Positions 2 through 47,936 of a DNA stretch of 52,834 nt are shown one piece after another (position 1 is the stretch's first letter; each line of letters begins with the position of its first letter). Source of the stretch: a virus (taxonomy: Duplodnaviria; Caudoviricetes); IMG/VR virus record IMGVR_UViG_3300023179_000144, positions 1 to 52,834 of that record. The stretch is one strand, 5' to 3'. The notes under the pieces were generated by a model, which saw only the letters and a list, made by a program, of their open reading frames with translations, was not told where the DNA came from and ran no database searches. The position numbers were made by a program, and so were the translations under genes.

Positions 2-160
2 GGGTTTTTGATCGCTGAGTTGGCTGAGGTTGCAGCGAAGTTGCCAAAGCGCGACAACATTTTTGCAGGGCAAATGATCAAGGCGTATGATTGCTTTGGT
101 AAGTTGAGCGCGAGGCAGGAAGCAGTGGTTCGTGAAATCCTTTTGAGAGCGGGAGTTTGA
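2..160 (+). CDS. Partial hypothetical protein (5' end outside window)
   Basis: Frame 2 is open from the edge (GFLIAELAEVAAKLPKRDN...RAGV) to TGA at 158-160, abutting the next ATG at 162. Confidence 0.7.
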   Translation, partial: GFLIAELAEVAAKLPKRDNIFAGQMIKAYDCFGKLSARQEAVVREILLRAGV

Positions 161-13447: not shown

Positions 13448-14197
13448 ATGGCAAAAAAACAACAACATTTACAATTACAAGACTCTACACCTAAAATGAC
13501 TTTATCTTCAAATAAATTAAAGTTACGTTTAGATGATATGGAGGTAATTGAGCCATTAACAGATAACCAAAGGAGAGTATTTGATGAGTATGATCATGCA
13601 AACATTATGTTGTTGCATGGGGTGGCTGGAACAGGAAAAACGTTTATAGCATTGTATCATGCATTAGAGGAGGTGCTTGATCGATCTAATCCATATGAAA
13701 AAGTAGTTATTGTAAGGTCTGCTGTTCCTTCAAGGGATATCGGTCATTTACCGGGTGATGAAAAAGAAAAGACCGAAGTTTATACAGAACCTTATGTAGA
13801 AATTTGCAAATCCCTTTTTGGTAGATCGGACGCTTATCAACGACTTAATGAACAAGGTGTAATTCAATTTTTAGTTACCTCTTTTGTTCGTGGTATTACA
13901 TTGGATGATTGTATTATTATAGTAGACGAATGTCAAAATATGACGGATATGGAGCTTAATTCAATTATTACTAGAGTCGGAGAAAGATCAAAAATTATAT
14001 TTTGTGGTGATTTTAGACAGACAGATCTCTACAAGAAATCTGATTTATCAGGACTTAAAAAGTTTATCGTTATTGCCGACATGATGCCTTCTTTTAAAGT
14101 ATTTGAGTTTGGAATAGAGGATATAGTTAGATCTAGTATTGTTAAGGAATATATAATAGCAAGAATGGCTTACGAAGAAAGATATGGTGGAAATTAG
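13448..14197 (+). CDS. phoH: PhoH-like ATPase
   Basis: Walker A GVAGTGKT, SFVRGITLD, IIVDECQN, CGDFRQTD, DIVRS. Confidence 0.95.
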   Translation: MAKKQQHLQLQDSTPKMTLSSNKLKLRLDDMEVIEPLTDNQRRVFDEYDHANIMLLHGVAGTGKTFIALYHALEEVLDRSNPYEKVVIVRSAVPSRDIGHLPGDEKEKTEVYTEPYVEICKSLFGRSDAYQRLNEQGVIQFLVTSFVRGITLDDCIIIVDECQNMTDMELNSIITRVGERSKIIFCGDFRQTDLYKKSDLSGLKKFIVIADMMPSFKVFEFGIEDIVRSSIVKEYIIARMAYEERYGGN

Positions 14198-15536: not shown

Positions 15537-16169
15537 ATGGAATTTGAATTTGATTTCACAGTAGACCATGTCAGGGCACTGTTGCCTAAGGTAAAAAACC
15601 ATGATGAATGGTTTGAATCGATGGTTGATGCCTTACCTCAATACAACATTTATAATGTAGAGAGAGTCGCTGCTTTTATTGCGCAATGCGCACACGAGTC
15701 TGGTGGTTTTACCATGTTATCAGAGAATTTAAATTACTCTGCAGACGGTCTGCGTAAAGTTTTCCCTAAATACTTTCCTAATGCTGAGATTGCACAACAA
15801 TATCATAGACAGCCTGAAAAGATTGCAAATAGAGTCTATGCAAGCAGAATGGGTAATGGGCCCGAATCATCTGGCGAAGGATTTAGATACAGAGGTCGCG
15901 GTCTTATTCAATTGACTGGTAAAGATAATTATAAACGTTGTAGTAATTATATGTTTGAGGATGATACACTGCTTCAACAACCTGATGTGCTTACTCAACC
16001 TTATTACGCTTTACATTCTGCGTGTTGGTTTTGGACCGCAAATAAATTAAATGACCTGGCTGACACGCAAGACTTAAGAATGATGACAAAGAGAATTAAT
16101 GGTGGTTTTATTGGTCTAGATGATCGTGTTAAACATTATAACCATGCTTTAGAAGTATTACAAACATAA
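15537..16169 (+). CDS. Glycoside hydrolase family 19 endolysin
   Basis: AAFIAQCAHESGGF, ENLNYSA, YRGRGLIQLTGKDNY, TKRINGG. Confidence 0.92.
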   Translation: MEFEFDFTVDHVRALLPKVKNHDEWFESMVDALPQYNIYNVERVAAFIAQCAHESGGFTMLSENLNYSADGLRKVFPKYFPNAEIAQQYHRQPEKIANRVYASRMGNGPESSGEGFRYRGRGLIQLTGKDNYKRCSNYMFEDDTLLQQPDVLTQPYYALHSACWFWTANKLNDLADTQDLRMMTKRINGGFIGLDDRVKHYNHALEVLQT

Positions 16170-16170
16170 C

Positions 16171-16827
16171 ATGAAAACATTTCGCCATGTACCAGTTGAT
16201 CTACCTTTAATAAAGCAAGTCAATCTAGAAAATAAACGTTTATATGAAACATCTATGGGAAACAAATACCCATCGATTACTACAGTGTTGTCTGAATATA
16301 ATAAACATGTTATAATGGAATGGCGTAAAAGGGTAGGGGCCGATAATGCAAATAGTATAGCTGCAGCTGCCTCGAGGCGTGGCACTAAGGTCCATTCTAT
16401 TATTGAGGCTTATCTTAAAAACGATGATGCACCGATAGAAGATAAGTTAGATCTCGATAGATTTTTTTCTTTGGAACCTTTCTTAGACTGCATTGATAAT
16501 ATACATGTTCAAGAGAAAGGTTTATATTCCGATCACCTAAGGATAGCTGGAACAGTAGACTGTATTGCTGAGTATAATGGTAAGTTATCTGTTATTGATT
16601 TTAAGACATCTTCTAAACCAAAGAAGAAAGAATGGATTGATAATTACTTTATGCAATGTGCAGCATATGCAATCATGTACGAAGAAAGAACCGGTACTCC
16701 AATCAATAGGCTAGTTATTATGATTTCTGTTGAGCAGGACGCACCGCAAATATTTTTAGAGAAAAGAGATAATTGGGTCAAGCAACTTTTACATTATAGA
16801 GATTTGTATGAAAGAAAAAAGACGTAA
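16171..16827 (+). CDS. PD-(D/E)XK exonuclease
   Basis: YPSITTVL, RGTKVHSIIE, AGTVDCIAE, VIDFKTS, YFMQCAAYA. Confidence 0.9.
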   Translation: MKTFRHVPVDLPLIKQVNLENKRLYETSMGNKYPSITTVLSEYNKHVIMEWRKRVGADNANSIAAAASRRGTKVHSIIEAYLKNDDAPIEDKLDLDRFFSLEPFLDCIDNIHVQEKGLYSDHLRIAGTVDCIAEYNGKLSVIDFKTSSKPKKKEWIDNYFMQCAAYAIMYEERTGTPINRLVIMISVEQDAPQIFLEKRDNWVKQLLHYRDLYERKKT

Positions 16828-17950
16828 AAAATTAGCTGTAATTGGAAGAGGCACTGCTGGTTGTCTATCAATTGCTCATTTTCAAAGATGGTCTGATTTT
16901 GATATAGAGTGGTATTTTGATCCAAACATTAAACCTCAAGCAGTTGGAGAAGGTTCTACTGCTTCTCTTCCTTATAACCTTTTTGATTATTTAAATTTTA
17001 CCATTGTCGACTTAGAAAAAATACATGGCACACTTAAAGGCGGAATAAAAAAGACAAATTGGGGATATAAAGATTATATACACCCTTTTCCTGGCAATGT
17101 TCATGGATATCATTTCAATGCTGTAAAATTGCAAGAGATGATCATTGATAAATTAAGCAATCATCCAAGAATAAAAATAACAGAGAAAAACGTTAGTGAT
17201 GATTCTATAGATAGTGATTTCGTAATGAATTGCATGGGTGCACCCAAAGAAAAAGATGAACGATTCATATACAGCAACCACATTCCTGTCAACTCAGCCT
17301 ACGTTACTCAATGTTATTGGGAAGGTGTAAAATTTGAATATACACTGACTATAGCAAGACCATATGGCTGGGTATTTGGTATTCCTCTTCTTAACAGATG
17401 TAGTATTGGTTACATGTTTAACAGCAGTATTAATAGTTTAGAAGAAGTAAAAGAAGATGTAAAAAATGTTTTTAAAGAATACGGATTGACGCCTAGTCAA
17501 GATACTAATCATTTAAAATTTAAAAATTATTATCGTAATCAAAATTGTACTGGAAGAGTTGTTTATAATGGTAATGCTAGTTTTTTCTTGGAGCCATTGG
17601 AGGCAACCAGCTTAGCATTTGTAAATCATATTAACAGAAATGCTTTTGACCATTGGTATGATAAGACATCTGTTGAAACCGTTAACACAAAATACAACGA
17701 TTTAATAAGTCAAATAGAATCAGTAATAATGTTACACTATGCAGCTGGTTCTAAATTTGATACAGAATTTTGGAAATTTGCAAAGGCTAGAGGGCTAGAA
17801 AACTTTTTAAGGTTTATTAATACAGATACATTTTTAAAGATAAGGCAAAGCATACTTTTAAATGAACCTGAAATAGGTACATGGCCGCCTTATTCTTGGG
17901 AAGTTAATTTACATAATTTAGGTTTAATGAAATACCTATCAGCAAAATAG
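16808..17950 (+). CDS. Tryptophan-halogenase-like flavoprotein
   Basis: VIGRGTAG FAD motif, VGEGST, GWVFGIPL, GNASFFLEPLEATSL. Confidence 0.85.
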   Translation: MKEKRRKKLAVIGRGTAGCLSIAHFQRWSDFDIEWYFDPNIKPQAVGEGSTASLPYNLFDYLNFTIVDLEKIHGTLKGGIKKTNWGYKDYIHPFPGNVHGYHFNAVKLQEMIIDKLSNHPRIKITEKNVSDDSIDSDFVMNCMGAPKEKDERFIYSNHIPVNSAYVTQCYWEGVKFEYTLTIARPYGWVFGIPLLNRCSIGYMFNSSINSLEEVKEDVKNVFKEYGLTPSQDTNHLKFKNYYRNQNCTGRVVYNGNASFFLEPLEATSLAFVNHINRNAFDHWYDKTSVETVNTKYNDLISQIESVIMLHYAAGSKFDTEFWKFAKARGLENFLRFINTDTFLKIRQSILLNEPEIGTWPPYSWEVNLHNLGLMKYLSAK

Positions 17951-17951
17951 A

Positions 17952-17959
17952 TATAAATA
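17952..17959 (+). promoter_or_regulatory. T4-type late promoter for the tmRNA gene
   Basis: Exact TATAAATA, 7 nt before the inferred 5' end of the acceptor piece. Confidence 0.75.
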
Positions 17960-17966
17960 CAATTAT

Positions 17967-18246
17967 AGTTGTATGAAGCAAGCAGAAAAGTGCTGCGGAC
18001 GCCGGGGCAGTACCGGCCAGGTCCACCAAAAATACATTCGGAACACGATACTTGATTATTTTTGATGGGCCTGAACAAGTTTCGACGGGGCAAATAGTAA
18101 GTAAGTGGACAACTCGTTAGGCGAAGGACGTAATCCTAGCAAAAGCAAATAGACGCAAACGACGACTATTTTTATCAGGACCTTAAGCTAGCCGCTTAAA
18201 CCTGACGGGGTATTGGCAGTTCACCTTGTTACCCAAAGAACTGCCT
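17967..18246 (+). ncRNA. ssrA: Circularly permuted (two-piece) tmRNA; tag (A)NDDYFYQDLKLAA*
   Basis: T-arm GCCGG-GGCAGTA-CCGGC (18001-18017) and CAGGTCC-A-CCA (18018-18028) lie upstream of the 5' strand GGGCCTG (18067-18073), forming a 7-bp stem with G3:U70. TTCGAC follows. Resume context ATAGAC-GCA; tag ORF 18155-18199. Confidence 0.93.
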
Positions 18247-18281
18247 TTTTATTTTTACACACAAACACAAAGGAGAAGTAA

Positions 18282-18548
18282 ATGAGTAATATGACACCAT
18301 TCGAAATTCGTTTAGAGTTATTAAAGTTGTCGAAAGACATGCTTAGTGAGGATTATTTTGCTAAGCGTTCAGTATCAGAAAACAACTGGCAAACCGCTTG
18401 TGAAAATGCAAGACAGCGCGGCGAACCTCTACCCCTCCAACCAGATCTTCCAGCCTATCCTCATGAAGAAGATGTTATAAAAAAGGCAAATATGCTTAAT
18501 GGATTTGTTTCACAAATCCCATCGGCTGAAAAACCAATTAGGCAGTAA
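18282..18548 (+). CDS. Conserved hypothetical protein
   Basis: AAGGAG RBS; TPFEIRLELLKL...DVIKKANMLNGFVS. Confidence 0.85.
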   Translation: MSNMTPFEIRLELLKLSKDMLSEDYFAKRSVSENNWQTACENARQRGEPLPLQPDLPAYPHEEDVIKKANMLNGFVSQIPSAEKPIRQ

Positions 18549-18550
18549 AA

Positions 18551-18572
18551 AACAGGGGGTATACCCCCTGTT
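18551..18572. terminator. Perfect 22-bp palindrome / hairpin
   Basis: AACAGGGGG-TATA-CCCCCTGTT between two CDSs. Confidence 0.6.
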
Positions 18573-18581
18573 GGAGATTCT

Positions 18582-19109
18582 ATGGACAAAATAATAAAAA
18601 TATTACTAACTTGTCTTTCTGCTTTACTTGTTGGTAATTTATTTTTAGATTTTATTAATTATAAACTTGAAATTTTAAGAACTGAGCAAGCTGAAACTAA
18701 GTATACCACTATGGCTGAGCGTGAAAGACAACTTGAATGTTTAGCTAGAAATATTTACTTTGAAGCAGGAAAAGAATCGTTTGAAGGCAAGGTAGCTGTA
18801 GCACAGGTTACTATCAATAGATCAGAATCAGGAATTTTCCCTAGTGATATTTGTAAAGTAATTTATCAAAAAAATATTTTTATGGAAAGAGTAGTGTGTC
18901 AATTTAGTTGGTATTGCCAACAGGTTAACAAAAAACATATACAGCCAGAAACATACAAAGAATGTTACGCTGTTGCAAAAAAGGTTTTGTTAGAAGGATT
19001 TAGACTTGACATTTTAAATGAAGCCATGTATTATCATGCAACCTACATTAATCCAAAGTGGAGAAAAGAAAAAGTAGCAGTTATTGGAAACCATATTTTT
19101 TATAAGTAA
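18582..19109 (+). CDS. SleB-like cell wall hydrolase (Hydrolase_2) with N-terminal anchor
   Basis: CLARNIYFEA, GKVAVAQVTINR, CQFSWYC, YYHATY, IGNHIFY. Confidence 0.9.
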   Translation: MDKIIKILLTCLSALLVGNLFLDFINYKLEILRTEQAETKYTTMAERERQLECLARNIYFEAGKESFEGKVAVAQVTINRSESGIFPSDICKVIYQKNIFMERVVCQFSWYCQQVNKKHIQPETYKECYAVAKKVLLEGFRLDILNEAMYYHATYINPKWRKEKVAVIGNHIFYK

Positions 19110-19111
19110 AA

Positions 19112-19447
19112 ATGAAACAAAACGCAAAAATGAACTTTAAAATCCCTTCCCTAGATTTACAAAAAATTATTGAGTATTGTAAAACTAATCTTACCCATGC
19201 AACAGCGGAAACCATTTCCTGGGTCGGTGTAATGCTAATTCATGCAGCTACTGTCCCAACCATGATTGCATTAATGACGGGTCTATCTGATAAGACACCA
19301 CCCATTGAATTAGTTTTAATTATTTGGGGTGGACTAGCTTTGTTCTATGTTAGAGCAGCAATACTAAAGGATATGCTTAATGTAATTACAATAGGTTTTG
19401 GCTTTTTAATTCATGCTGTAATGTTAGCATTGGTAATGTTTAAATGA
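19112..19447 (+). CDS. Membrane protein with about 3 TM segments
   Basis: Three hydrophobic stretches. Confidence 0.7.
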   Translation: MKQNAKMNFKIPSLDLQKIIEYCKTNLTHATAETISWVGVMLIHAATVPTMIALMTGLSDKTPPIELVLIIWGGLALFYVRAAILKDMLNVITIGFGFLIHAVMLALVMFK

Positions 19448-19704
19448 ATGATATAAAAGATTTAACTGATGGATTAGTAATTACTAAAAGATTTAGATCA
19501 TCCAATGAATTTTCTATTCACATAGAAGAACAAGTAAGGTCACTTAATATTAGTTATATGGAAGCTATTATTACTTATTGCAATGAACAAGACATTGATG
19601 TAGAAAGAATAGCTGGATTGATTAGTTCTTCTTTAAAAGATAAAATCCAACTTGAAGCTGAAGAATTAAATATGATAAAGAGAGGTGGTAGGTTACCCTT
19701 ATGA
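19444..19704 (+). CDS. 33: Late-transcription coactivator gp33
   Basis: FSIHIEE...SYMEAIITYC...LISSSLKDKIQLEAEELN...LPL; synteny with 59 and 32. Confidence 0.9.
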   Translation: MNDIKDLTDGLVITKRFRSSNEFSIHIEEQVRSLNISYMEAIITYCNEQDIDVERIAGLISSSLKDKIQLEAEELNMIKRGGRLPL

Positions 19705-20279
19705 TTATGACAGAATTTGAAGTGTATCGGTTTTACTTGGCATTAAAATTACATTTTACAACAGACAAATATGATGTTATTAAACAAAAAGGTAGAGTAA
19801 GAGCAAAGCGTGCGGCATTTGCAAAACGCAATGATTTAATTTCTATTAAGAAAATTGCAAAGAATTATTCGGATGAAGAGGTAGTAAATTTTTTGGTTGC
19901 AAACTTTGTATCCGGCGACAGATGGGGTGGAATATTTGATACCGAAGCAAATGAAAGATATCTTTCATGGAAAAAAAGAATTGAGGGTTTAACGTATACA
20001 TTTACTGAAGATATCAATAAATTATTTTCAAATAACATCAATCCTTTTAGTTGCTCGAAAGAAGAACATTCCTATATAATAAAACAATACTTAAGAAATA
20101 ATGTTTCTATAGAAACATTAGTTGTCATAGATTCATTTAGATCATTTGTAGATGAATATGATCAAATATATAAAGAAGATATAGTTTGGCCAGATATTTC
20201 AAGAATTATTAAAAAGTATAAACCGTTTCTAAAATTTAATAAAGAAAAACTCTATGCAATCTATAGAACAAGATCTTAA
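19701..20279 (+). CDS. 59: Helicase loader gp59
   Basis: YLALKLHFTTDKYD, FLVANF, SIETLVVID, IKKYKPFL. Confidence 0.9.
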   Translation: MIMTEFEVYRFYLALKLHFTTDKYDVIKQKGRVRAKRAAFAKRNDLISIKKIAKNYSDEEVVNFLVANFVSGDRWGGIFDTEANERYLSWKKRIEGLTYTFTEDINKLFSNNINPFSCSKEEHSYIIKQYLRNNVSIETLVVIDSFRSFVDEYDQIYKEDIVWPDISRIIKKYKPFLKFNKEKLYAIYRTRS

Positions 20280-20707: not shown

Positions 20708-21628
20708 ATGGCTAATGGATCCCTATCGGAACTTCGTAAATCACGTGGTGGTTTCGATAAGATGATGAAAGAAGTTGAAAAGATTTCTGCCCCTGCAGAA
20801 GGTAGTGGTAAAGACGATCGTTTCTGGCAGCCAGAAGTAGATAAAGCTGGAAATGGTTACGCTGTAATTCGATTCCTATCGCCACCTAAAGGCGAAGAAC
20901 TTCCTTGGGTTCGCATTTGGAATCACGGTTTTCAAGGTCCTACTGGAAAGTGGTATATTGAAAACTCTCTCACAACGATTGGTAAACAAGACCCAATCTC
21001 AGAATTGAATACCAAATTGTGGAACTCTGGCAACGAGAAGGACAAAGAGACAGTTCGCAAACAAAAACGCAAACTCACCTACATCTCAAACGTTTTAGTT
21101 GTTAAGGATCCTGCACATCCTGAGAATGAAGGAAAGGTGTTTCTCTTTAAGTATGGCAAGAAGATCTTTGATAAGATTAAAGACCTTGCTGAACCTCAGT
21201 TTGAGGATGAGAAGCCTGTAAATCCTTTTGACTTTTGGGAAGGTGCTAACTTCAAGATTAAGATTCGTAATGTAGAGGGTTATCGCAATTACGATAAATC
21301 AGAATTCGAATCCCCTTCAGCTATTTCAGACAATGATGATGGAATTATGGCTATTTGGAATAAGCAATACTCTCTTACAGAGTTCTTACATCCAAGAAAC
21401 TTTAAATCTTATGAAGAGCTCAAGGCAAAACTAGATTCTGTGTTGAACGCAACATCTGCCCCGGCAATGCGCAGGATCGAAGAGGATGATGTTGCAGAAG
21501 CTCCTGCTCCTAAAGCAGTTGCTCGTCAAGCAGCTCAACCAGAAAAGCCTGCACCAAAGAAAGAAGTAGATTTTGATGACGATGAAGAATCTCTCTCATA
21601 TTTTGCAAAACTTGCAAACGAAGAGTAA
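20708..21628 (+). CDS. 32: Single-stranded DNA-binding protein gp32
   Basis: DDRFWQPEVDKAGNGYAVIRFL, WYIENSLTT, NPFDFWEGANFK, acidic tail SYFAKLANEE. Confidence 0.97.
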   Translation: MANGSLSELRKSRGGFDKMMKEVEKISAPAEGSGKDDRFWQPEVDKAGNGYAVIRFLSPPKGEELPWVRIWNHGFQGPTGKWYIENSLTTIGKQDPISELNTKLWNSGNEKDKETVRKQKRKLTYISNVLVVKDPAHPENEGKVFLFKYGKKIFDKIKDLAEPQFEDEKPVNPFDFWEGANFKIKIRNVEGYRNYDKSEFESPSAISDNDDGIMAIWNKQYSLTEFLHPRNFKSYEELKAKLDSVLNATSAPAMRRIEEDDVAEAPAPKAVARQAAQPEKPAPKKEVDFDDDEESLSYFAKLANEE

Positions 21629-22041: not shown

Positions 22042-22236
22042 ATGAAATTAGAACTTAATGACCTTGTTGCAGTATTGGCAATTTTTGATCTGGCGGCATC
22101 CAGAGGCGCCTTCAAGGCAAATGAACTAGCTGAGATTGGTGCAGTATTTAATAAAGTACAAACTTTAGCTCAATTGGTGCAAAGAAATGCCGAAATTCAA
22201 TCTACACCACCAGACGAAGAACTTATGCCAGAGTAG
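22042..22236 (+). CDS. Small hypothetical protein
   Basis: LNDL...IFDLAASRGAFKANEL...GAVFNKV motif recalled from phage proteins. Confidence 0.65.
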   Translation: MKLELNDLVAVLAIFDLAASRGAFKANELAEIGAVFNKVQTLAQLVQRNAEIQSTPPDEELMPE

Positions 22237-24556
22237 GAAATGCATTTTTAAACATTACATTTTCTATAGTGGAATTTACATTTCTTGTTCCAGATATAGA
22301 AGGTAATGTCTTAGTTGATCCACCTTGAGGTTGTGGCACAGCATTGTTTACATTATTAACAACGATTGGTGGCATTGCTTTATTAGATGCTGTTTCTTGT
22401 TGTTGCAATGTCTCAATCTCTTTTGCAGAAGTTGACATTGGAGATGGAACTTGACTAACTGATGATTGACTTACATTTACAACTGATGGATTACTACTTA
22501 CCATATTACTACTTACCATATTACTACTTACCATATTATTACTACTTACCATATTATTACTAGATGATTGAGAATTGGTAACATTATTACTAGATTGTGA
22601 AGGTGTTATATTAGTGTTATCACCATTTTTAATAGTAATAGATCCAGCACCAGCAGCCTCTATCTGATCCTTAAACTTTTTAACAGCCTCAACTTTAGCT
22701 TTCTGTTGTGATAATTCTTTAATACTTTGTACTCTTTGGGTAGGTGAATTTTCTGTAATTTTATATTTCTTAGAATCTTCTTTATAAATCTCTTCAGTTC
22801 TTTGGTTTCTAAATTCAACAAACTTCTTATAATTTTCTGGATCTTTTTCAGCAAAAGCTTTTTCACTAAAGTTGATATCAACCTTTTCTGACATTCCTGT
22901 TTTTTGAATTTGAGTCGATGATTCCGAATTGTTAACTATATCTTTACTTTTTTCAGTAAGATATTCTGTCTCCTTCTTAACTCGATCTGCTCTTGCTTGT
23001 CTTGCCATGTTACCTAAGAATAAAAAGTCTCCAACCTTCTCAACGCCCCTTGCGATTCCAGATTGAATCTTTTGGCCAGTAGTCATCTTTTGCCAATTGG
23101 CTTCATCTTGTGATTCATTAATTTTTATATCATTACCCTGCTCATCTTTGCCGACACCCAGCTTACCTAATCCATAATCTACAGCTGCACCTCCAGCTAC
23201 AGCAACTGCTCCAGCTGCTAATGTAGGGGCTGCAGCAAGTGCCATTCTTCCTGCAGCAGAGGCACCTTTCTTGATTGCACCAGTAGCTGCAGCTCCAGCT
23301 GCGCCTCCAAGTAATCCTTCGATTAATGAACCACCACCTCCACCCGTTTCTCTTAATTCATCGAGTTTATCTAATAGCTTAATAGTATTCTTATCCATAG
23401 CCTTAATGATTGGAGCTACATCAAAGGTCTGTTTTTGCTCTGCATTTGATACATTAAGCTGTGATGGTGTGGCAACAAGAGGAATAAACTTGGGCCTTTT
23501 AGGTTCATTAGAAGGTTTTGTCTTTTCCTCTTTTTCTTTTTTTGCTAATCTACCTGGCACCAAAAAATTAAGAATATTTTCCTTTACTCTTTTATAATCA
23601 TCTTTAAGATCTTTTTCAATATTATCTACAAAACTTATTTTTTTTATTATTTGTTTTTCATTAAGATTTGTATCTGTGTTTACATTTTTAATATTGTTAT
23701 AATCTTTAAGATCAAATATATTTTCGTTGGTATTTAATTGATTTACCTTATCAAAATTACTTAAATTACTACTAGTATTGTTACTGGTACTATTGTTTTT
23801 ATTGTTAGTATTGTTGGTATTGTTGGTATTGTTAGTATTGTTAGTATTGTTACTGGTACTATTGTTTTTATTGTTAGTATTGTTGGTATTGTTAGTATTG
23901 TTACTGGTACTATTGTTTTTATTGTTTTTATTGTTTGTATTGTTACTGGTACTATTGTTTTTATTGTTAGTATTGTTACTGGTACTATTGTTTTTATTGT
24001 TAGTATTGTTGGTATTGTTAGTATTGTTGGTATTGTTAGTATTGTTAGTATTGTTAGTATTGTTAGTATTGTTAGTATTGTTAGTATTGTTACTGGTACT
24101 ATTGTTTATATTGTTTGTATTGTTACTGGTACTATTTTTTGTATTGTTAGCATTAATATTGGAATTACTACTAGTAATAATATCAATAGTACTAGTGTTG
24201 TTGTTATTAATAGAGCTTTTTAATTGAGTTATTTTTTCGAGTAAATTATTTTTTTTAATATTATTGTTTAGTTTATCTATATTTTCGCTGAATAAACCAA
24301 AACCTTTTTCTAAAACCTTTACTAGCTTATCTAAAGAATCGGATGATAGTTTAGTATATTCAGTTAATTTTACTAACCTATCATTATCTTCCTTAGCATT
24401 TGTTTTTTGTTTTGATTTGTCGTTATAGTATGCACTATTTAAATTACTAGGTTTTACTTTTGCTATTAATCCCAATAGTCTATTAGCAACATCAGCCTTT
24501 CGACTTTGCTTTTCATTAACAGCAATAACTCTTTCTAGTAATTTGTTTGCTAACAT
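22223..24556 (-). CDS. Tape-measure / baseplate-hub-like protein with Asn-rich repeats
   Basis: 777 aa; Gly/Ala-rich hydrophobic centre, C-terminal PPIVVNNVNN; downstream of gp26/gp51-like genes. Confidence 0.6.
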   Translation of the reverse strand: MLANKLLERVIAVNEKQSRKADVANRLLGLIAKVKPSNLNSAYYNDKSKQKTNAKEDNDRLVKLTEYTKLSSDSLDKLVKVLEKGFGLFSENIDKLNNNIKKNNLLEKITQLKSSINNNNTSTIDIITSSNSNINANNTKNSTSNNTNNINNSTSNNTNNTNNTNNTNNTNNTNNTNNTNNTNNTNNKNNSTSNNTNNKNNSTSNNTNNKNNKNNSTSNNTNNTNNTNNKNNSTSNNTNNTNNTNNTNNTNNKNNSTSNNTSSNLSNFDKVNQLNTNENIFDLKDYNNIKNVNTDTNLNEKQIIKKISFVDNIEKDLKDDYKRVKENILNFLVPGRLAKKEKEEKTKPSNEPKRPKFIPLVATPSQLNVSNAEQKQTFDVAPIIKAMDKNTIKLLDKLDELRETGGGGGSLIEGLLGGAAGAAATGAIKKGASAAGRMALAAAPTLAAGAVAVAGGAAVDYGLGKLGVGKDEQGNDIKINESQDEANWQKMTTGQKIQSGIARGVEKVGDFLFLGNMARQARADRVKKETEYLTEKSKDIVNNSESSTQIQKTGMSEKVDINFSEKAFAEKDPENYKKFVEFRNQRTEEIYKEDSKKYKITENSPTQRVQSIKELSQQKAKVEAVKKFKDQIEAAGAGSITIKNGDNTNITPSQSSNNVTNSQSSSNNMVSSNNMVSSNMVSSNMVSSNPSVVNVSQSSVSQVPSPMSTSAKEIETLQQQETASNKAMPPIVVNNVNNAVPQPQGGSTKTLPSISGTRNVNSTIENVMFKNAFPTLA
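22490..22563 (-). repeat. Tandem repeats encoding (N)NMVSS
   Basis: Four copies of ATTACTACTTACCAT on the + strand at 15-18 nt spacing. Confidence 0.85.
23775..24140 (-). repeat. Minisatellite of 9-bp units encoding NNT/NNK with interspersed NNSTS
   Basis: Runs of TATTGTTAG/TATTGTTGG with recurring TTACTGGTACTATTG blocks. Confidence 0.95.
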
Positions 24557-26939: not shown

Positions 26940-27386
26940 TCACTTTATTCCAAGCTCTTTTTCTGTTAATACCATAAACTTCCATCCCCTATCATCACAA
27001 AATTCCTTTGCTGATTTCCATTTTGCACTATTGACACCATATTGAAATACTTCATCAACAAATCTTTTAGTCTTTTTAGCAGGAATAGTAGGAGGTTTCG
27101 TTTGGCTATCTGGTTTGATTTCAATTAAATACTTTTGAATCTGACCATTGGAAGCTTTAACTTTAATATAAAAGTCTACAAAGTATCGATGAATCTTTTT
27201 ATCAAGTGGTGAAACGTAAGGAATCACTGCGATCTCTGAACCCCATTCAATAATAGAAGGATTCGAATCACACCATTTCATAAACCTTAATTCCCATGAA
27301 CTCCTAAAGATGATGCCGTGAACATCTCCAACATACTTGGATATATTTGTTGGTTTAAATTTACCTTTGTAGAACTGTTTAGCCAT
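26940..27386 (-). CDS. 4: Head completion nuclease gp4
   Basis: YKGKFKPTNISKYVGD, RSSWEL, HRYFVDF, EIKP, NSAKW; likely start ATG 27386. Confidence 0.93.
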   Translation of the reverse strand: MAKQFYKGKFKPTNISKYVGDVHGIIFRSSWELRFMKWCDSNPSIIEWGSEIAVIPYVSPLDKKIHRYFVDFYIKVKASNGQIQKYLIEIKPDSQTKPPTIPAKKTKRFVDEVFQYGVNSAKWKSAKEFCDDRGWKFMVLTEKELGIK

Positions 27387-27389
27387 GGG

Positions 27390-27431
27390 TATAAATATTC
27401 TCATTACTCTAATACTTACTATTTATAAATA
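27390..27431. promoter_or_regulatory. Divergent late promoters
   Basis: TATAAATA on + at 27390-27397 and 27424-27431, on - at 27420-27427 (palindrome TATTTATAAATA). Confidence 0.8.
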
Positions 27432-27439
27432 GGCCCCTA

Positions 27440-28591
27440 ATGGAAAAGAATTTTGCCTCAATGGAAGATTATAGAGATGTTGCGGATAGACAAGAACGCA
27501 ACAAAAATCTATATGATCCCAACCTTTCTCCCACGTATAGTTCGGGGCGCTATAACATTGGTTCAATGAGATATCCACAAGATATTGGTGAACAAGAAAA
27601 TCTTCAGTATGTTGCATTTTACATTAATGTAAGAGGAAAGTCCAAGTATAATCAAGATAATAGAATACAATCTATACCTTCTGAAGGTACTTCTAGCTTG
27701 ACTTCAGATCAAATGGCTGCTGGTGTAACTACTGCTGGAACAATCGCTGGTGCTGTTGGTGGAGTAGCTGTAGGTAATAAACTAGGCGTACAGACTACAC
27801 CAGGAAGAGTTGTTACTGGATCCGTTGGTACTGCAGTTGGCTTAGGTGGGACATTAGCATTTCAAAGCACCGAAATAGGTAGAGCAGATACTTCTCAAAG
27901 AATTAGTTCAGTTATTACTCTTTATGTTGATGCTCCTCCTTCTGTTACATATGGTGCAAAATATGCAAACCAAGATCTTGGAACCTTAGCTGGTTTGCTA
28001 TCACAAGGTGGTGCAGCTGTTGGCGATCTTCTAAGAAATTTTTATAATGCTGGATTTGATTCTAATTTTTTTAATAGTGCAGGTAATTTAGGTGGAATAG
28101 GTGCAGAAGGTGCTGGTGCTTTGTTATTACAACTTGCGCAGCTTCCAAGTGCATTTGGTTCTACTGATCTTAAAGCTCTTCAATCAGCTGCATCAAAAAC
28201 AACTACCAATCCATTTAGAGAAGTGCTGTTTGAGATGATGGACTTTAGATCGTTTAAATTTAAGTATAAGTTTATGCCAAGAAATGATAGTGAATTAAAT
28301 TCAGTAAAAAAGATTATTGATGAATTTAAGTTTCACATGCACCCAGAACTATCTAAAAACAAATTCTTTTTAATTTATCCTGCAGACTTCAATATTGTAT
28401 ATTACTTTAGAGGTTCTGCCAATGAATTTGTACATAAGATTGGAAGGTGTGTGCTCACAGACATGAGTGTAGAGTATGGAAGTGGTGAATATACTGCATT
28501 TAGTAATGGCAGCCCCTCAGAAATCAATATGGCTCTATCGTTCCAGGAAACAGAAATGCTTACCAAAGAACGTATTCTTGCTGGATACTAA
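27440..28591 (+). CDS. 48: Baseplate tail-tube cap gp48
   Basis: RYPQD, NPFREVLFEMMDFRSFKFKYKFMPRN, CVLTDMSVEY, LSFQETE. Confidence 0.88.
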   Translation: MEKNFASMEDYRDVADRQERNKNLYDPNLSPTYSSGRYNIGSMRYPQDIGEQENLQYVAFYINVRGKSKYNQDNRIQSIPSEGTSSLTSDQMAAGVTTAGTIAGAVGGVAVGNKLGVQTTPGRVVTGSVGTAVGLGGTLAFQSTEIGRADTSQRISSVITLYVDAPPSVTYGAKYANQDLGTLAGLLSQGGAAVGDLLRNFYNAGFDSNFFNSAGNLGGIGAEGAGALLLQLAQLPSAFGSTDLKALQSAASKTTTNPFREVLFEMMDFRSFKFKYKFMPRNDSELNSVKKIIDEFKFHMHPELSKNKFFLIYPADFNIVYYFRGSANEFVHKIGRCVLTDMSVEYGSGEYTAFSNGSPSEINMALSFQETEMLTKERILAGY

Positions 28592-45662: not shown

Positions 45663-47936
45663 ATGTCAGACTATAAATCACAAGTATTTGATATTTGTCT
45701 TGAAAAAATCAAGATTAAATTAGCATCGTATCTGTATACCACTCTGATGGGTGCTAATTATAAGCAAACGGGTGAGTCAACAGAAGTCAATGGAGCTGTT
45801 GTTCCAACCTCTGGAACTCGTGGCTACTACACATATTCTCAAATACCAGCACTTGGTACAGGATTTAATCCAAGCACATTAGGTTTAGCTGGAACAAACA
45901 GTTCTCCTCAGCCATGGTATAGAGATGCAAGAATTGCTTGGTATAACGGTCTAAGAAGTACAATTACTGACGATCTTTACAAGATTGGTAAAGGCGGTAA
46001 AGATGTTGTATTATTGAGTAATGGTGCAGCTGACAATACAAATATTAATACTAAAAATGGATTAATTGGAGCTGTAGATCCAATTGCACAGTCATTCTTT
46101 GTTACCGAAGATGCTGTTGTTATAACAAAAATAGATTTATTTTTATATTCTAAAGACGATAATCTTCCAATTTATCTAGAATTAAGAAAGATGGTTTCAG
46201 GTGTACCTGGAACTGATATTATTCCTTTTGGAAGAGCAGTTGTTCCTAGCAATTTTGTTGTTACAAGTGCAGATGCAACAAAGCCAACTACATTTATTTT
46301 TGAATCGCCAGTTCATTTAGAATCTGGAGAATATGCATTTGTTATTAGAACAGATTCAGCTAACTATAAACTTTGGGCATCAGCATTAAATGATGTTGAT
46401 ATTGTTAAAAAGACAAGAATTACCGAACAACCTACAGTAGGCAATTACTTTAAATCTCAAAATTTAACAAATTGGACAGAAGATCCTGTTGTAGATTTGA
46501 AGTTTACGTTGTTTAGGGCTGAGTTTGATATTTCTGCAATTGGAACTCCTCAGTTTTCTGTATTATCGCCAAGCTACGATACCATTACTCTTGAAAATAA
46601 TCCATTAGAGTTTTTCCCCAATGTAAACTACATGCGTGTTTATGCACCTAATCATGGAAATGCAACAGGTGATGTAATTTCTTTACAAGGTATTAATTTT
46701 ACAACAAATATTATTGACGAGGATACAAGCACACTTAATACAACCTATCAGGTTATTAAGGCTAACAAAGATGATTTCATCGTCCAGTGGACAAATGTTG
46801 CAAATGCTAATATAATTTCAAGAGCAACAAGAGTTGGCGGAACAGGAATTGTTCTTTCTGGTTCTAAAAATATTTTATTTGATACAGTGATTCCTGAAGT
46901 AGCAACATATGTCCCAAAGAATACTAAGCTCGAGGCATTTGTTAAGACAGTCGAAGAAGGAACAAGAGGATATCGTTATCAGTATATTGATTTAGCAAGC
47001 CAGTATAATTTCGAAAAGATGCAGGTATTGCTAAGCAGCAAGAATAAAGGCAACATGAGTCAGGATTATAACACACTTTATCCTGGCTTAAGAAACTTTG
47101 AACCTTTCCATGTTGTATTTCCAATATCTTCTGAAAATACTTTAGTATCTCCATTAATTGATATCAAGAAAACTAGATTTAACTTTGTTAAGAGTGATCT
47201 AGATAGTGGAAGTTTGTTACCATACAACCAAACTACAGTAGATCAAACATTAGTTTTCACTAATTCTAATGTTTATGTTAATATATCAGATGCTGCATAT
47301 AGAAATTCTAGAATTTATGTTCAGTATCCAGATCAAAGATCTAATGTCAATCAATATGTTAGGGAAGGTTCATTAATTATCTATAATGTACCTAAACTGA
47401 ATGCAACATTAACTTATCGTGTTGATAGTGTGGAGAATACAGGTGCAAATATCTATGTGACAGAGATGACGCCACCGTATGTTCCAATGTTCACTAACTT
47501 AATAAATCATGATGGTGCAACAAGAGTTAATACCAACATGTATGTAAATACATACTATGTATTTGATACCGCATCTAAAGGATCAACAACACCTGCTCAA
47601 CACATTACAAAAGAATTTAAGTTTGCAAATCCAAGTTCTGGATTGACGGCCTATGCTGATGTTTGTGTGCCTGATGGTACTTCTATTACGATGATGTATA
47701 GAACTAAGCAGGTTGGTGAAGGTGATACTCCTATCAGCGATAAGCCATTTAAGTATTTTGAACAAACAAAATTAAGTAAGTTAATTACAGATAAAAATAA
47801 ATTTGTTGAAATATCTGTTAGTGGCGAAAATTTACCATTATTTGAATCGGTTCAGGTTAAAATTATTTTTAACAGAAACTCACAAAGTGGTTTAGTTCCT
47901 AGGGTGAAGAATTTAAGGGTGATTGCTCTTGCATGA
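45663..47936 (+). CDS. DUF4815/VrlC-like protein, part 3
   Basis: DPIAQSFFV...ITKIDLF, FKSQNLTNW...DLKFTLFRAEF, terminal VPRVKNLRVIALA. Confidence 0.8.
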   Translation: MSDYKSQVFDICLEKIKIKLASYLYTTLMGANYKQTGESTEVNGAVVPTSGTRGYYTYSQIPALGTGFNPSTLGLAGTNSSPQPWYRDARIAWYNGLRSTITDDLYKIGKGGKDVVLLSNGAADNTNINTKNGLIGAVDPIAQSFFVTEDAVVITKIDLFLYSKDDNLPIYLELRKMVSGVPGTDIIPFGRAVVPSNFVVTSADATKPTTFIFESPVHLESGEYAFVIRTDSANYKLWASALNDVDIVKKTRITEQPTVGNYFKSQNLTNWTEDPVVDLKFTLFRAEFDISAIGTPQFSVLSPSYDTITLENNPLEFFPNVNYMRVYAPNHGNATGDVISLQGINFTTNIIDEDTSTLNTTYQVIKANKDDFIVQWTNVANANIISRATRVGGTGIVLSGSKNILFDTVIPEVATYVPKNTKLEAFVKTVEEGTRGYRYQYIDLASQYNFEKMQVLLSSKNKGNMSQDYNTLYPGLRNFEPFHVVFPISSENTLVSPLIDIKKTRFNFVKSDLDSGSLLPYNQTTVDQTLVFTNSNVYVNISDAAYRNSRIYVQYPDQRSNVNQYVREGSLIIYNVPKLNATLTYRVDSVENTGANIYVTEMTPPYVPMFTNLINHDGATRVNTNMYVNTYYVFDTASKGSTTPAQHITKEFKFANPSSGLTAYADVCVPDGTSITMMYRTKQVGEGDTPISDKPFKYFEQTKLSKLITDKNKFVEISVSGENLPLFESVQVKIIFNRNSQSGLVPRVKNLRVIALA

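What the first reader, a model, noticed from the sequence alone, without database searches (positions are those of the whole stretch)
17952..18250. Phage-encoded circularly permuted two-piece tmRNA under a T4 late promoter
Seen in sequence: the 3' half of a tRNA-Ala-like domain (T-arm 18001-18017, CAGGTCC-A-CCA 18018-18028) comes before the 5' half (GGGCCTG 18067-18073). The halves give a 7-bp acceptor stem with the G3:U70 alanine identity pair, separated by a 38-nt intervening segment with self-pairing ends (CAAAAATA/TATTTTTG). AGTTGT (17967-17972) can pair with ACAACT (18109-18114) to hold the pieces together. A tag frame (A)NDDYFYQDLKLAA* follows (18155-18199), and TATAAATA lies just upstream. 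Established: permuted tmRNAs occur in Alphaproteobacteria, some Betaproteobacteria, picocyanobacteria and some mitochondria; C-terminal LAA is the ClpXP degron. Inference: the phage supplies its own ribosome-rescue RNA late in infection, using host SmpB and RNases (no smpB in this window), perhaps to replace host tmRNA cut by defence nucleases. I cannot confirm from here how novel a permuted form is in phages.
Basis: partly seen in the sequence, partly recalled or inferred. Interest (0 to 1): 0.92.

Follow-up and report, generated by a model that had tools for sequence, protein, structure and literature searches.

The report
Phage-encoded two-piece tmRNA gene
This is a real, conserved, circularly permuted ribosome-rescue RNA (tmRNA) gene in an uncultured T4-like phage, at the same genome position as the two-piece tmRNAs already published for the related marine phages Melnitz and HTVC008M, so it is a correct but not a new kind of finding.

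Summary
ARAGORN calls a permuted tmRNA with tag ANDDYFYQDLKLAA*. Rfam tmRNA_permuted scores 127.7 bits against a cut-off of 47. The window is a T4-like phage fragment, 33% complete.

The gene order is PhoH, nuclease, tmRNA, gp33, gp59, gp32. Phages Melnitz and HTVC008M have the same order, and both carry permuted tmRNAs. In 65 of 80 related viral contigs a permuted tmRNA lies upstream of the same 88-aa gene. The acceptor stem, T-arm, P2, spacer helix and 3' hairpin all covary, and G3:U70 is invariant. No smpB was found in the window or in two complete relatives.

The late-promoter claim is plausible for this copy only. TATAAATA lies 7 nt upstream, and 4 of the window's 6 TATAAATA sites are intergenic. 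Ten of 39 upstream regions have full sigma-70 promoters instead.

Two-piece tmRNAs in marine T4-like phages were published in 2022 (PMC9004378). Smaller new points are hybrid alpha/beta typing, a swapped T-arm and no glutamine riboswitch. Verdict: a new member of a known kind, of modest interest.

The parts
17952..17959 (+). TATAAATA box (T4 late-promoter consensus), 7 nt upstream of the first paired base of the tmRNA. It occupies the same place as the -10 box in the Rfam beta_tmRNA model.
   Evidence: Sequence. Exact-match scan: 6 sites in the window against 9.8 expected, but 4 of 6 are in non-coding DNA. Aligned to 'UAuAAU' of RF01850. No sigma-70 -35/-10 pair was found here by the consensus scan.
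17967..18028 (+). Acceptor piece (62 nt). It holds the 5' strands of the P2 helices (17967-17971, 17980-17983, 17991-17997), the T-arm (18001-18017, with T-loop GGCAGUA), the 3' strand of the acceptor stem (18018-18024), discriminator A18025 and an encoded CCA (18026-18028).
   Evidence: Rfam alignment. Covariation: T-arm 100% paired with 3 of 5 pairs changed on both sides; P2 outer helix 98.7% paired with 5 of 5 pairs changed on both sides. The T-loop type recurs in 16 of 79 distinct viral TLD halves and matches the alpha_tmRNA consensus.
18029..18066 (+). Intervening segment (38 nt), expected to be excised from the precursor. Its ends can pair (CAAAAAUA / UAUUUUUG).
   Evidence: Sequence and fold (-4.8 kcal/mol, z -0.68, so not significant alone). 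In relatives the length varies from 34 to 186 nt where it could be measured. The basal helix covaries: 94.7% paired and 7 of 9 pairs changed on both sides, in a register 2 columns from the window's own (slide -2).
18067..18245 (+). Coding piece. It holds the 5' strand of the acceptor stem (18067-18073), the D-loop-like stretch (18074-18085), the 3' strands of P2 (18086-18092, 18101-18104, 18110-18114), the PK1 hairpin (18115-18130), the tag frame, and the 3' hairpin (18215-18245) with a possible pseudoknot strand at 18206-18210.
   Evidence: Rfam alignments. Acceptor stem 100% paired, with G3:U70 in 17 of 17 sequences and 3 pairs changed on both sides. In the 3' hairpin 7 of 8 pairs changed on both sides; the pseudoknot is less clear, with one pair unpaired in 22 of 28 sequences.
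18155..18199 (+). Tag reading frame: resume codon GCA, then ANDDYFYQDLKLAA and stop TAA.
   Evidence: ARAGORN, aligned to the tag part of RF04321. L124 has the identical tag. All 56 relatives called by ARAGORN have a tag closed by a stop, and 55 of the 56 tags end in AA (one ends in VA).
18246..18256 (+). T-rich tract (TTTTTATTTTT) directly after the 3' hairpin. It is a probable intrinsic terminator and the 3' end of the precursor.
   Evidence: Sequence. The hairpin folds at -16.5 kcal/mol, z -2.5. The simple terminator scan missed it because the loop is 15 nt. The T tract is not kept in all relatives.

Best explanation
It is a functional ssrA gene carried by a lytic T4-like phage, encoding a circularly permuted (two-piece) tmRNA.

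Proposed mechanism (all steps inferred):
1. A precursor of about 285-290 nt is made from the box at 17952-17959. It starts near 17965-17967 and ends at the hairpin and U tract (18215-18256).
2. Host enzymes remove the 38-nt spacer. RNase P would cut 5' of G18067, and 3' trimming would stop at the encoded CCA at 18028. This leaves a 62-nt acceptor piece and a coding piece of about 180 nt. The acceptor stem and the P2 helices hold the two pieces together.
3. Host AlaRS charges the RNA through G3:U70. Host SmpB and EF-Tu deliver it to ribosomes stalled on broken mRNAs.
4. Translation resumes at GCA (18155) and adds ANDDYFYQDLKLAA. The ribosome is released at TAA, and the tagged peptide goes to host proteases.

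The likely benefit is to keep ribosome rescue running while the phage shuts off host gene expression and mRNA decay produces non-stop messages.

Shown here: the gene's identity, its structure and its conservation. Inferred: processing, charging, SmpB use, tagging, timing and benefit.
For: **Identity.** ARAGORN calls a permuted tmRNA with a tag. Rfam tmRNA_permuted scores 127.7 bits against a cut-off of 47.

**Selection on structure.**
- In 17 sequences from related contigs the acceptor stem and T-arm are 100% paired, and P2 is 98-99% paired.
- 20 of 31 pairs changed on both sides, G3:U70 is present in 17 of 17, and 0 of 500 shuffles reach the covariation score.
- The 3' hairpin has 7 of 8 pairs changed on both sides.
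- The spacer's basal helix covaries.

**Selection on the tag.** All 56 ARAGORN-called relatives keep a stop-terminated tag, and 55 of the 56 tags end in AA.

**Phage context.**
- gp32, gp59, gp33, PhoH and baseplate genes are present.
- A permuted tmRNA lies upstream of the same 88-aa gene in 65 of 80 related loci: 56 by ARAGORN plus 9 of 20 rechecked with Rfam.
- Melnitz, HTVC008M and Mosig (3 of 3) have a permuted tmRNA over the cut-off. It lies in the same gene order in Melnitz and HTVC008M.

**No smpB.** None in the window or in 5 related or known records, 2 of them complete.

**Spread.** More than 119 IMG/VR stretches match a strict permuted-TLD pattern, and ARAGORN of those 119 as permuted tmRNA.

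**Literature.** The same reading is given for Melnitz (PMC9004378).
Against: - There is no direct evidence of expression, processing, alanylation or tagging, and no RNA run was available.
- Two P2b pairs and one P2d pair are non-canonical in this copy.
- The MAFFT alignment gives only 53-54% pairing for P2b and the PK1 hairpin.
- The T-loop (GGCAGUA) departs from the usual UUCGANU type seen in most relatives. However, it is a recurrent type in which positions 54 and 58 change together.
- 11 of 80 related loci show no tmRNA in the 683-3000 nt available upstream, so the gene is dispensable for some relatives.
- The window covers only a third of the genome, so a phage smpB elsewhere in this genome is not excluded.
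Confidence: 0.85

Rival explanations
1. The RNA is made and charged, but its purpose is not to maintain rescue. Instead the phage uses it to tag and destroy host (or selected) nascent proteins and so recycle amino acids. The longer, acidic and aromatic tag might change how tagged proteins are handled.
For: The authors of the Melnitz paper raise this as an alternative (PMC9004378, passage). The tag of this copy (14 aa) is longer than the 10-aa tags of most relatives.
Against: The mechanism is the same as in the best explanation and only the benefit differs. Nothing in the sequence tells the two apart. The tag still ends in LAA like ordinary tags.
Confidence: 0.08
2. It is a decoy. The tRNA-like domain soaks up host SmpB and blocks host trans-translation, as proposed for the TLD-only gene of mycobacteriophage DS6A.
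For: PMC4131195 (passage) notes that a TLD-only molecule strongly inhibits tmRNA, perhaps by titrating SmpB. No smpB is present in this window or in the relatives searched.
Against: The complete coding piece, resume codon, tag frame, stop and 3' hairpin are kept under selection in relatives. A decoy would not need them.
Confidence: 0.04
3. It is a passenger: a host gene picked up by chance, an attachment-site remnant, or an assembly chimaera with host DNA, with no function in the phage.
For: tmRNA genes are common integration sites, and fragments of them occur in prophages (stated in PMC9004378).
Against: - Both halves are full length.
- The gene lies between T4-type core genes.
- The position is conserved in 65 of 80 related contigs and in cultured phages.
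- The helices covary.
- A motif from its P2 region gave only 6 matches in 185,579 species genomes, and none of them is a tmRNA.
Confidence: 0.03

Closest known systems
SsrA (two-piece tmRNA) of Methylophilales phage Melnitz EXVC044M (MZ577097.1, tmRNA 45984-46436), with the unannotated homologues in Pelagibacter phages HTVC008M and Mosig
   Same: - Permuted tmRNA over the Rfam cut-off.
- Same gene order: PhoH, PDDEXK nuclease, tmRNA, gp33, gp59, gp32.
- Same T-loop, GGCAGUA, in Melnitz.
- TATAAATA at the -10 position in Melnitz.
- A related 3' hairpin motif.
- No phage smpB.
   Different: - Those three type only as alpha_tmRNA. The window scores higher with beta_tmRNA (89.2) than with alpha_tmRNA (72.9).
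- Melnitz has a glutamine riboswitch (RF01739, 52.8 bits) right after the tmRNA. The window has none at E<=10, nor do any of 40 relatives scanned at the gathering score.
- Melnitz has a -35 box and the window does not.
- The window has an 88-aa gene, a cell-wall hydrolase and a 111-aa gene between the tmRNA and gp33.
- Nucleotide similarity is too low for blastn. Baseplate gp6 is only about 37-38% identical.
Bacterial two-piece tmRNAs (Rfam beta_tmRNA RF01850, alpha_tmRNA RF01849 and the merged tmRNA_permuted RF04321)
   Same: The architecture is the same: the acceptor piece comes first, then the spacer, then the coding piece. It has P2, PK1, a tag and a 3' pseudoknot hairpin. It matches all three models full length and above their cut-offs.
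   Different: - It is encoded by a lytic phage with no smpB nearby.
- It is a hybrid. The T-loop matches the alpha consensus, while the 3' hairpin loop (CCUUGUUACC.AAA) matches the beta consensus.
- A late-type phage promoter box stands where the beta model has UAuAAU.
- 0 of 151 sampled genomes of one GTDB class reached the beta_tmRNA cut-off, so no cellular donor was identified.
One-piece tmRNAs of mycobacteriophages (Bxz1 group) and Bacillus phage G, and the TLD-only gene of DS6A
   Same: They are phage-borne ssrA genes (PMC4131195).
   Different: Going by the 2014 list in PMC4131195, which names no phage two-piece form, those genes are not permuted. They come from unrelated phage groups and hosts.

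Membership tests
tmRNA, permuted/two-piece form (Rfam RF04321) | Score at or above the curated cut-off of the covariance model, over its full length | tested here: met
   127.7 bits against 47, model positions 1-213 of 213.
tmRNA, permuted/two-piece form (Rfam RF04321) | Gene order permuted: the 3' half of the tRNA-like domain, ending in CCA, comes before the 5' half | tested here: met
   ACCA at 18025-18028 precedes GGGCCTG at 18067-18073. ARAGORN flags the gene as permuted.
tmRNA, permuted/two-piece form (Rfam RF04321) | 7-bp acceptor stem with the G3:U70 alanine identity pair | tested here: met
   Sequence. The stem is 100% paired, G:U is present in 17 of 17 sequences, and 3 other pairs changed on both sides.
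tmRNA, permuted/two-piece form (Rfam RF04321) | T-arm with a T-loop | tested here: met
   5-bp stem, 100% paired across relatives. The loop GGCAGUA is the alpha-type variant, not UUCGANU.
tmRNA, permuted/two-piece form (Rfam RF04321) | Long-range P2 helices joining the two pieces | tested here: met
   The outer helix is 98.7% paired with 5 of 5 pairs changed on both sides, and the inner helices are 98% paired. The middle helix (P2b) is only 53% paired in the MAFFT alignment and has 2 non-canonical pairs in the window.
tmRNA, permuted/two-piece form (Rfam RF04321) | Pseudoknot PK1 before the resume codon | tested here: inconclusive
   The model places the hairpin at 18115-18130, but it is only 54% paired in the MAFFT alignment. 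The pseudoknot strand was not tested.
tmRNA, permuted/two-piece form (Rfam RF04321) | Short tag frame that starts at an Ala resume codon, ends in hydrophobic residues plus AA, and is closed by a stop | tested here: met
   GCA ... LAA TAA at 18155-18199. Stop-terminated tags are kept in 56 of 56 ARAGORN-called relatives, and 55 of the 56 end in AA.
tmRNA, permuted/two-piece form (Rfam RF04321) | Processing into two RNAs, alanylation, SmpB binding and tagging activity | not testable with these tools
   No RNA run was listed. These need bench work.
beta_tmRNA subtype (RF01850) | Best-scoring subtype model above its cut-off, including the subtype-specific 3' hairpin | tested here: inconclusive
   89.2 bits against 84 is a narrow pass. 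The 3' loop matches the consensus well, but the last hairpin of the model is absent. alpha_tmRNA also passes (72.9 against 50), and the T-loop is of the alpha type. Among relatives, 19 of 20 type as beta and 5 others type as alpha.
T4-type late promoter | Exact TATAAATA at about -10, with no -35 requirement, in a phage that has the gp33/gp55 late system | tested here: met
   The box is at 17952-17959, 7 nt before the RNA. No -35/-10 pair was found there. gp33 is at 19444-19704 (PF16805, 1.2e-21). gp55 was not looked for, and only a third of the genome is held.
T4-type late promoter | Motif used as a signal in this genome and conserved at this site in relatives | tested here: inconclusive
   4 of the window's 6 sites are intergenic (P about 6e-5 by a binomial that ignores the AT-richness of spacers). 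Only 4 of 39 distinct upstream regions (window included) keep it, while 10 of 39 have sigma-70 promoters.
Glutamine riboswitch attached to a phage tmRNA (as in Melnitz) | RF01739 match downstream of the tag | tested here: not met
   The window has no match at E<=10. Melnitz scores 52.8 bits with the same tool. 0 of 40 related loci match at the gathering score.

The most novel reading that the evidence does not exclude
Phage two-piece tmRNAs may be a long-lived, phage-maintained lineage that evolves by swapping modules (T-arm, spacer, tag plus 3' domain, promoter) among co-infecting phages and hosts. T4-like aquatic phages could then be a vehicle that moves permuted-tmRNA parts between alpha- and beta-proteobacterial lineages. 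In this copy the promoter module would have been switched from sigma-70 to late control.

Observations that allow this reading:
- One syntenic locus holds alpha-typed tmRNAs (Melnitz, HTVC008M, Mosig, L127, L137-139, L170) and beta-typed tmRNAs (19 of 20 other relatives).
- The window matches L124 at 213 of 224 positions outside the T-arm and spacer, but at only 10 of 17 in the T-arm, where it carries the alpha-type loop.
- L125 shares the 5' part (34 of 34 positions) but has a different tag and 3' domain (23 of 45 and 24 of 46).
Probability: 0.15. Interest if true: 0.55.

Novelty: new member of a known kind. Interest (0 to 1): 0.3.

Why it matters
It adds a large uncultured branch of T4-like phages to those known to carry their own ribosome-rescue RNA. 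At least 587 IMG/VR stretches encode the neighbouring 88-aa protein. It also shows that the gene has sat at one conserved locus across distantly related phages, with gp6 only about 37-38% identical.

This strengthens the case that trans-translation capacity limits large lytic phages of aquatic bacteria. It also gives material for studying how a structured RNA evolves by module exchange and promoter switching.

It does not open a new category. The phenomenon, its marine bias and its possible roles were published in 2022. What remains unknown is experimental: no study turned up in the searches run here shows that any phage two-piece tmRNA is processed, charged or used.

Tried and rejected
- **blastn against phages.** The tmRNA region gave no match against 50,697 phage records.
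- **Relatives of the virus record.** I used the search for related loci and pattern scans.
- **Cellular donor or host.** A P2-region pattern scanned over 185,579 species genomes gave 6 hits, none a tmRNA by ARAGORN. RF01850 over 151 genomes sampled from the GTDB class of one of those hits gave 0 over the cut-off. That call included two genomes flagged unpublished, G145 and G043, and nothing here rests on them beyond that tally. The host and donor remain unknown.
- **Glutamine riboswitch as in Melnitz.** Not present here.
- **Expression.** No RNA holder was listed for window 17400-18800.
- **The 88-aa neighbour as a possible tmRNA partner.**
  - It has no Pfam or PHROG family.
  - The AlphaFold model (pLDDT 89.3) is a two-helix protein.
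  - No PDB match at E<=0.001. Only uncharacterised phage proteins match in BFVD.
  - Its only hit in cultured phages is weak (27% identity, E 4e-4, phage C48C1).
  - Nothing links it to tmRNA beyond adjacency.
- **Simple terminator scan.** It found nothing because the 3' hairpin loop is 15 nt. The hairpin was shown by folding and covariation.
- **My first spacer-helix register.** It gave no covariation (54.5% paired). The register 2 columns away gave 94.7%.
- **My first anchor regex.** It lost 42 loci and was replaced. 4 loci still lacked the anchor and were left out of the promoter count.
- **Rows left out of alignments.**
  - A1 used 17 of the 21 references that script one search listed (spacer up to 101 nt). 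Four near-duplicates were dropped: L135, L136, L171 and L174.
  - A3 used 28 of 36 distinct 3' tails. L125 was dropped because its 3' domain is different, and 7 near-duplicates were dropped.
- Supplementary Table S1 of PMC9004378, the list of phages with two-piece tmRNAs, could not be seen and may already include close relatives of this contig.
Full report
**1. The observation**

- ARAGORN finds a single RNA gene in the whole 52.8-kb window. It is a permuted tmRNA at 17936-18290 on the + strand, with the tag ANDDYFYQDLKLAA* at 18155-18199.
- Rfam's merged model for permuted tmRNAs (RF04321) matches 17967-18199 over its full length at 127.7 bits, against a cut-off of 47.
- The older subtype models also match: beta_tmRNA 89.2 bits (cut-off 84) and alpha_tmRNA 72.9 bits (cut-off 50).
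- cyano_tmRNA reaches only 27.9 bits, below its cut-off of 70.

**2. What the window is**

The tool reports an IMG/VR virus record of 52,834 bases with CheckV completeness 33%.

PHROG and Pfam scans show a T4-like myophage:

| Coordinates | Gene |
|---|---|
| 13448-14197 | PhoH |
| 15537-16169 | endolysin |
| 16171-16827 | PDDEXK-type exonuclease |
| 16808-17950 | tryptophan-halogenase-like protein |
| 18582-19109 | cell-wall hydrolase |
| 19444-19704 | late-transcription coactivator gp33 |
| 19701-20279 | helicase loader gp59 |
| 20708-21628 | ssDNA-binding protein gp32 |
| 27-40 kb | baseplate genes gp48, gp5, gp6, gp7, gp8 |

By gp6, the closest cultured phages are Methylophilales phage Melnitz, Pelagibacter phages HTVC008M and Mosig, and cyanomyoviruses, at about 35-38% identity. 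By gp32, cyanophages are closest at about 54-56%. This is therefore a distant, uncultured branch.

**3. Anatomy**

| Coordinates | Element |
|---|---|
| 17952-17959 | TATAAATA box |
| 17967-18028 | acceptor piece |
| 18029-18066 | spacer |
| 18067-18245 | coding piece |
| 18246-18256 | T tract |

- **Acceptor piece.** It holds the P2 5' strands, the T-arm (18001-18017), the acceptor 3' strand (18018-18024) and ACCA (18025-18028).
- **Coding piece.** It holds the acceptor 5' strand (18067-18073), the P2 3' strands, the PK1 hairpin (18115-18130), the tag frame (18155-18199) and the hairpin GGCAGUUC/GAACUGCC (18215-18245). The hairpin folds at -16.5 kcal/mol, z -2.5.
- **Resume-codon context.** It aligns with the model consensus around 'UGCaAACGA'.

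**4. Conservation and covariation**

ARAGORN of those 119 as permuted tmRNAs with tags. None is close to this one; the best is 73% identity over 200 nt.

*Is it kept in relatives?* I anchored on the 88-aa gene just downstream (18282-18548). That found at least 587 related stretches, of which the best 80 were kept.
- ARAGORN finds a same-strand permuted tmRNA upstream in 56 of the 80. Often it lies 75-85 nt before the gene, as in the window, where the gap is 83 nt.
- 20 loci had no ARAGORN call but at least 600 nt of upstream sequence. Rfam finds a permuted tmRNA over the cut-off in 9 of these.
- The totals are 65 of 80 with a tmRNA, 11 without one in the 683-3000 nt available, and 4 too short to judge.

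*Do the helices covary?* I made a MAFFT alignment of 17 sequences (A1) and mapped the Rfam structure onto it.
- 87.3% of cells are paired, against 72.5% in shuffles.
- 20 of 31 pairs changed on both sides.
- The covariation score is 0.421 against 0.147, and 0 of 500 shuffles reach it. All slid controls stay below 0.13.
- The acceptor stem and T-arm are 100% paired, and G3:U70 is present in 17 of 17 sequences.
- The basal helix of the spacer covaries in a register two columns from the window's own: 94.7% paired, with 7 of 9 pairs changed on both sides.
- In the 3' hairpin, 7 of 8 pairs changed on both sides in 28 sequences. The pseudoknot with the upstream G-run is less clear.

Weaker points:
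- P2b and the PK1 hairpin are only 53-54% paired in the MAFFT alignment.
- The window has three non-canonical P2 pairs.
- The window's spacer fold alone is not significant.

**5. Known relatives and the literature**

Rfam finds a permuted tmRNA over the cut-off in Melnitz, HTVC008M and Mosig, 3 of 3.
- In Melnitz it is annotated as SsrA. The gene order there is PhoH, PDDEXK nuclease, two small genes, tmRNA, gp33, gp59, ThyX, gp32.
- In HTVC008M the order is PhoH, endolysin, exonuclease, tmRNA (not annotated in that record), two small genes, gp33.
- The window has the same order. This is the same locus in a distant relative.

Buchholz et al. 2022 (PMC9004378; passages from the abstract, introduction, results, conclusion and figure legends read) report the following:
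- They describe the Melnitz two-piece tmRNA and a glutamine riboswitch in its 3' part.
- They count 53 two-piece tmRNAs among the 402 phage genomes with a tmRNA, out of 18,146 phage genomes. 50 of the 53 come from marine or aquatic phages.
- They find permuted tmRNAs in 17 of 47 Melnitz- and pelagimyophage-like contigs.
- They propose the same two roles discussed here.

The 2025 tmRNA database paper also covers viral genomes and built RF04321 (PMC11915505, passages). The 2014 survey listed only one-piece or TLD-only phage genes (PMC4131195, passages).

None of the papers they listed has a title that points to an experimental test of a phage two-piece tmRNA. I read only the three papers named here.

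**6. The promoter**

For a late promoter in this copy:
- The box is exact and lies 7 nt before the first paired base.
- The consensus scan finds no sigma-70 pair there.
- The genome encodes gp33.
- TATAAATA is not over-represented overall (6 sites against 9.8 expected). But 4 of the 6 sites lie in the 4.6% of DNA that is non-coding. Two of them form a back-to-back pair between the divergent genes 26940-27404 (-) and 27440-28591 (+, gp48). ATAAATA also precedes the gene at 33959 and gp8 at 39155.
- A binomial gives P about 6e-5 for TATAAATA and 8e-9 for ATAAATA. Both are overstated, because spacers are AT-rich.

Against conservation of that control:
- Of 39 distinct upstream regions, only 4 have TATAAATA (the window, L123, L161, L172). 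Ten have a full TTGAC(A/T)-16..18-TANNNT promoter, and 25 have neither pattern.
- The two closest copies have TATAGATA (L124) and TATACATA (L125).
- Melnitz has TTGACA-17-TATAAATA, which its authors read as early.

My reading is that the promoter class at this site has changed repeatedly. Late, or dual early and late, expression is a reasonable guess for this phage (about 0.5), and it is unproven. The statements about the T4 late-promoter consensus and its distance to the start site rest on my general knowledge.

**7. Subtype and mosaic structure**

- *Subtype models.* Melnitz, HTVC008M and Mosig type as alpha_tmRNA. 19 of 20 relatives of the window type as beta_tmRNA, at up to 173 bits. Five other relatives type as alpha: L127, L137-139 and L170. 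The window passes both models.
- *T-loop.* The window's T-loop, GGCAGUA, is the type found in the alpha_tmRNA consensus (GGCgGUA) and in Melnitz. Among 79 distinct viral tRNA-like-domain halves, loop positions 1 and 5 (54 and 58 in tRNA numbering) are either U and A (63) or G and G (16). No mixed cases occur.
- *3' loop.* The window's 3' hairpin loop matches the beta consensus.
- *Against L124* (same tag), the window is identical at 213 of 224 positions. By segment this is 31 of 34 in the 5' part of P2, 11 of 11 in the acceptor 3' strand plus ACCA, 84 of 88 in the coding piece, 44 of 45 in the tag and 43 of 46 in the 3' domain. The T-arm matches at only 10 of 17 and the spacer at 18 of 38.
- *Against L125*, the 5' part is identical (34 of 34) and the coding piece matches at 79 of 88. 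The tag (23 of 45) and 3' domain (24 of 46) differ.

This pattern suggests exchange of modules. I did not test it with a recombination method or against cellular sequences.

The window has no glutamine riboswitch at E<=10, and none of the 40 related loci scanned has one at the gathering score. The same tool finds it in Melnitz at 52.8 bits.

**8. Mechanism and rivals**

The best-supported reading is an ordinary two-piece tmRNA that works with host factors. The proposed steps are:
1. Transcription from the box at 17952.
2. Excision of the spacer, by RNase P at G18067 and 3' trimming to the encoded CCA.
3. Charging by AlaRS through G3:U70.
4. Delivery by host SmpB and EF-Tu.
5. Tagging with ANDDYFYQDLKLAA.
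6. Release at TAA.

No smpB is present in the window. None is present in two complete relatives (168.9 and 165.3 kb, with terminal repeats), one partial relative, Melnitz or HTVC008M, 0 of 5. The enzymatic steps are inferred from what is established for bacterial two-piece tmRNAs. None was tested here.

Rivals:
- Same mechanism used to destroy host proteins (0.08).
- SmpB decoy (0.04). This is disfavoured because the tag frame and 3' domain are conserved.
- Passenger or artefact (0.03). This is disfavoured by synteny and covariation.

**9. Verdict**

Identity and host dependence are supported, the timing claim is half supported, and the purpose is open. The kind of element is already published, so this is a new member of a known kind.

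The modest new points are:
- the size of this uncultured lineage;
- the fixed locus across distant T4-like phages;
- the hybrid alpha/beta features and the swapped T-arm;
- the turnover of promoter type;
- the absence of the riboswitch seen in Melnitz.

Interest is 0.3.

**10. Limits**

- No expression data are available.
- The host and any cellular donor are unknown.
- The alignments for covariation are MAFFT alignments of selected, non-identical rows; the rows left out are listed under Tried and rejected.
- The supplement of PMC9004378 was not visible.

Noticed in passing
window 18282-18548 (+): An 88-aa gene lies 83 nt after the tmRNA tag stop. It is very widely conserved in uncultured phages: at least 587 IMG/VR stretches, with 24 invariant columns in 24 sequences. 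It has no Pfam or PHROG family. The AlphaFold model (pLDDT 89.3) shows a long helix (residues 6-46), a proline-rich loop and a second helix (62-77). It matches no PDB entry and only uncharacterised phage proteins in BFVD. It is often adjacent to the tmRNA but is absent from Melnitz and HTVC008M.
   Followed up: partly
window 18006-18012; loci L004-L202: There are two T-loop types among viral permuted tmRNAs. Loop positions 1 and 5 are U and A in 63 distinct sequences and G and G in 16, with no mixed cases. The G/G type (GGCRGNA) is the Rfam alpha_tmRNA consensus and is also present in Melnitz. The structural reason was not examined.
   Followed up: partly
window 18001-18066 against L124:985-1405 and L125:2195-2560: The mosaic pattern is module-like. 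The T-arm and spacer differ sharply from L124, while the rest matches at 213 of 224 positions. L125 shares the 5' part but has another tag and 3' domain.
   Followed up: partly
window 16808-17950 (+): A tryptophan-halogenase-like gene (PF04820, 8.4e-33; phrog_2928, 3.9e-67) ends 1 nt before the TATAAATA box. This is an unusual auxiliary gene for a T4-like phage.
   Followed up: no
window 27390-27431: Three TATAAATA boxes lie close together. Two form a back-to-back pair (27420-27427 on the - strand, 27424-27431 on the + strand) in the 35-nt gap between divergent genes 26940-27404 (-) and 27440-28591 (+, gp48-like). This is probably a bidirectional late-promoter pair.
   Followed up: partly
L216 (NC_020484.1 145161-145370) and MT647606.1 111558-111772: The records of Pelagibacter phages HTVC008M and Mosig hold permuted tmRNAs over the Rfam cut-off (90.6 and 93.6 bits). 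The HTVC008M feature table does not annotate its copy, and the RNA overlaps the end of hypothetical protein I899_gp194. The Mosig annotation at that place was not looked at.
   Followed up: partly
window 22223-24556 (-): A 777-aa ORF lies on the opposite strand, in a region of reversed GC and AT skew (22-28 kb). It has no PHROG family at E<=0.001.
   Followed up: no
window 15537-16169 and 18582-19109: Two different peptidoglycan-hydrolase genes lie within 3.5 kb, one on each side of the tmRNA. One matches phrog_181 (endolysin, 2.7e-79) and the other Pfam Hydrolase_2 (5.4e-25).
   Followed up: no
L137, L138, L139, L127, L170 and others: ARAGORN missed 9 permuted tmRNAs that Rfam RF04321 finds at 54-111 bits. 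Three of these are cut by the contig end. Counts based on ARAGORN alone therefore undercount phage two-piece tmRNAs.
   Followed up: yes
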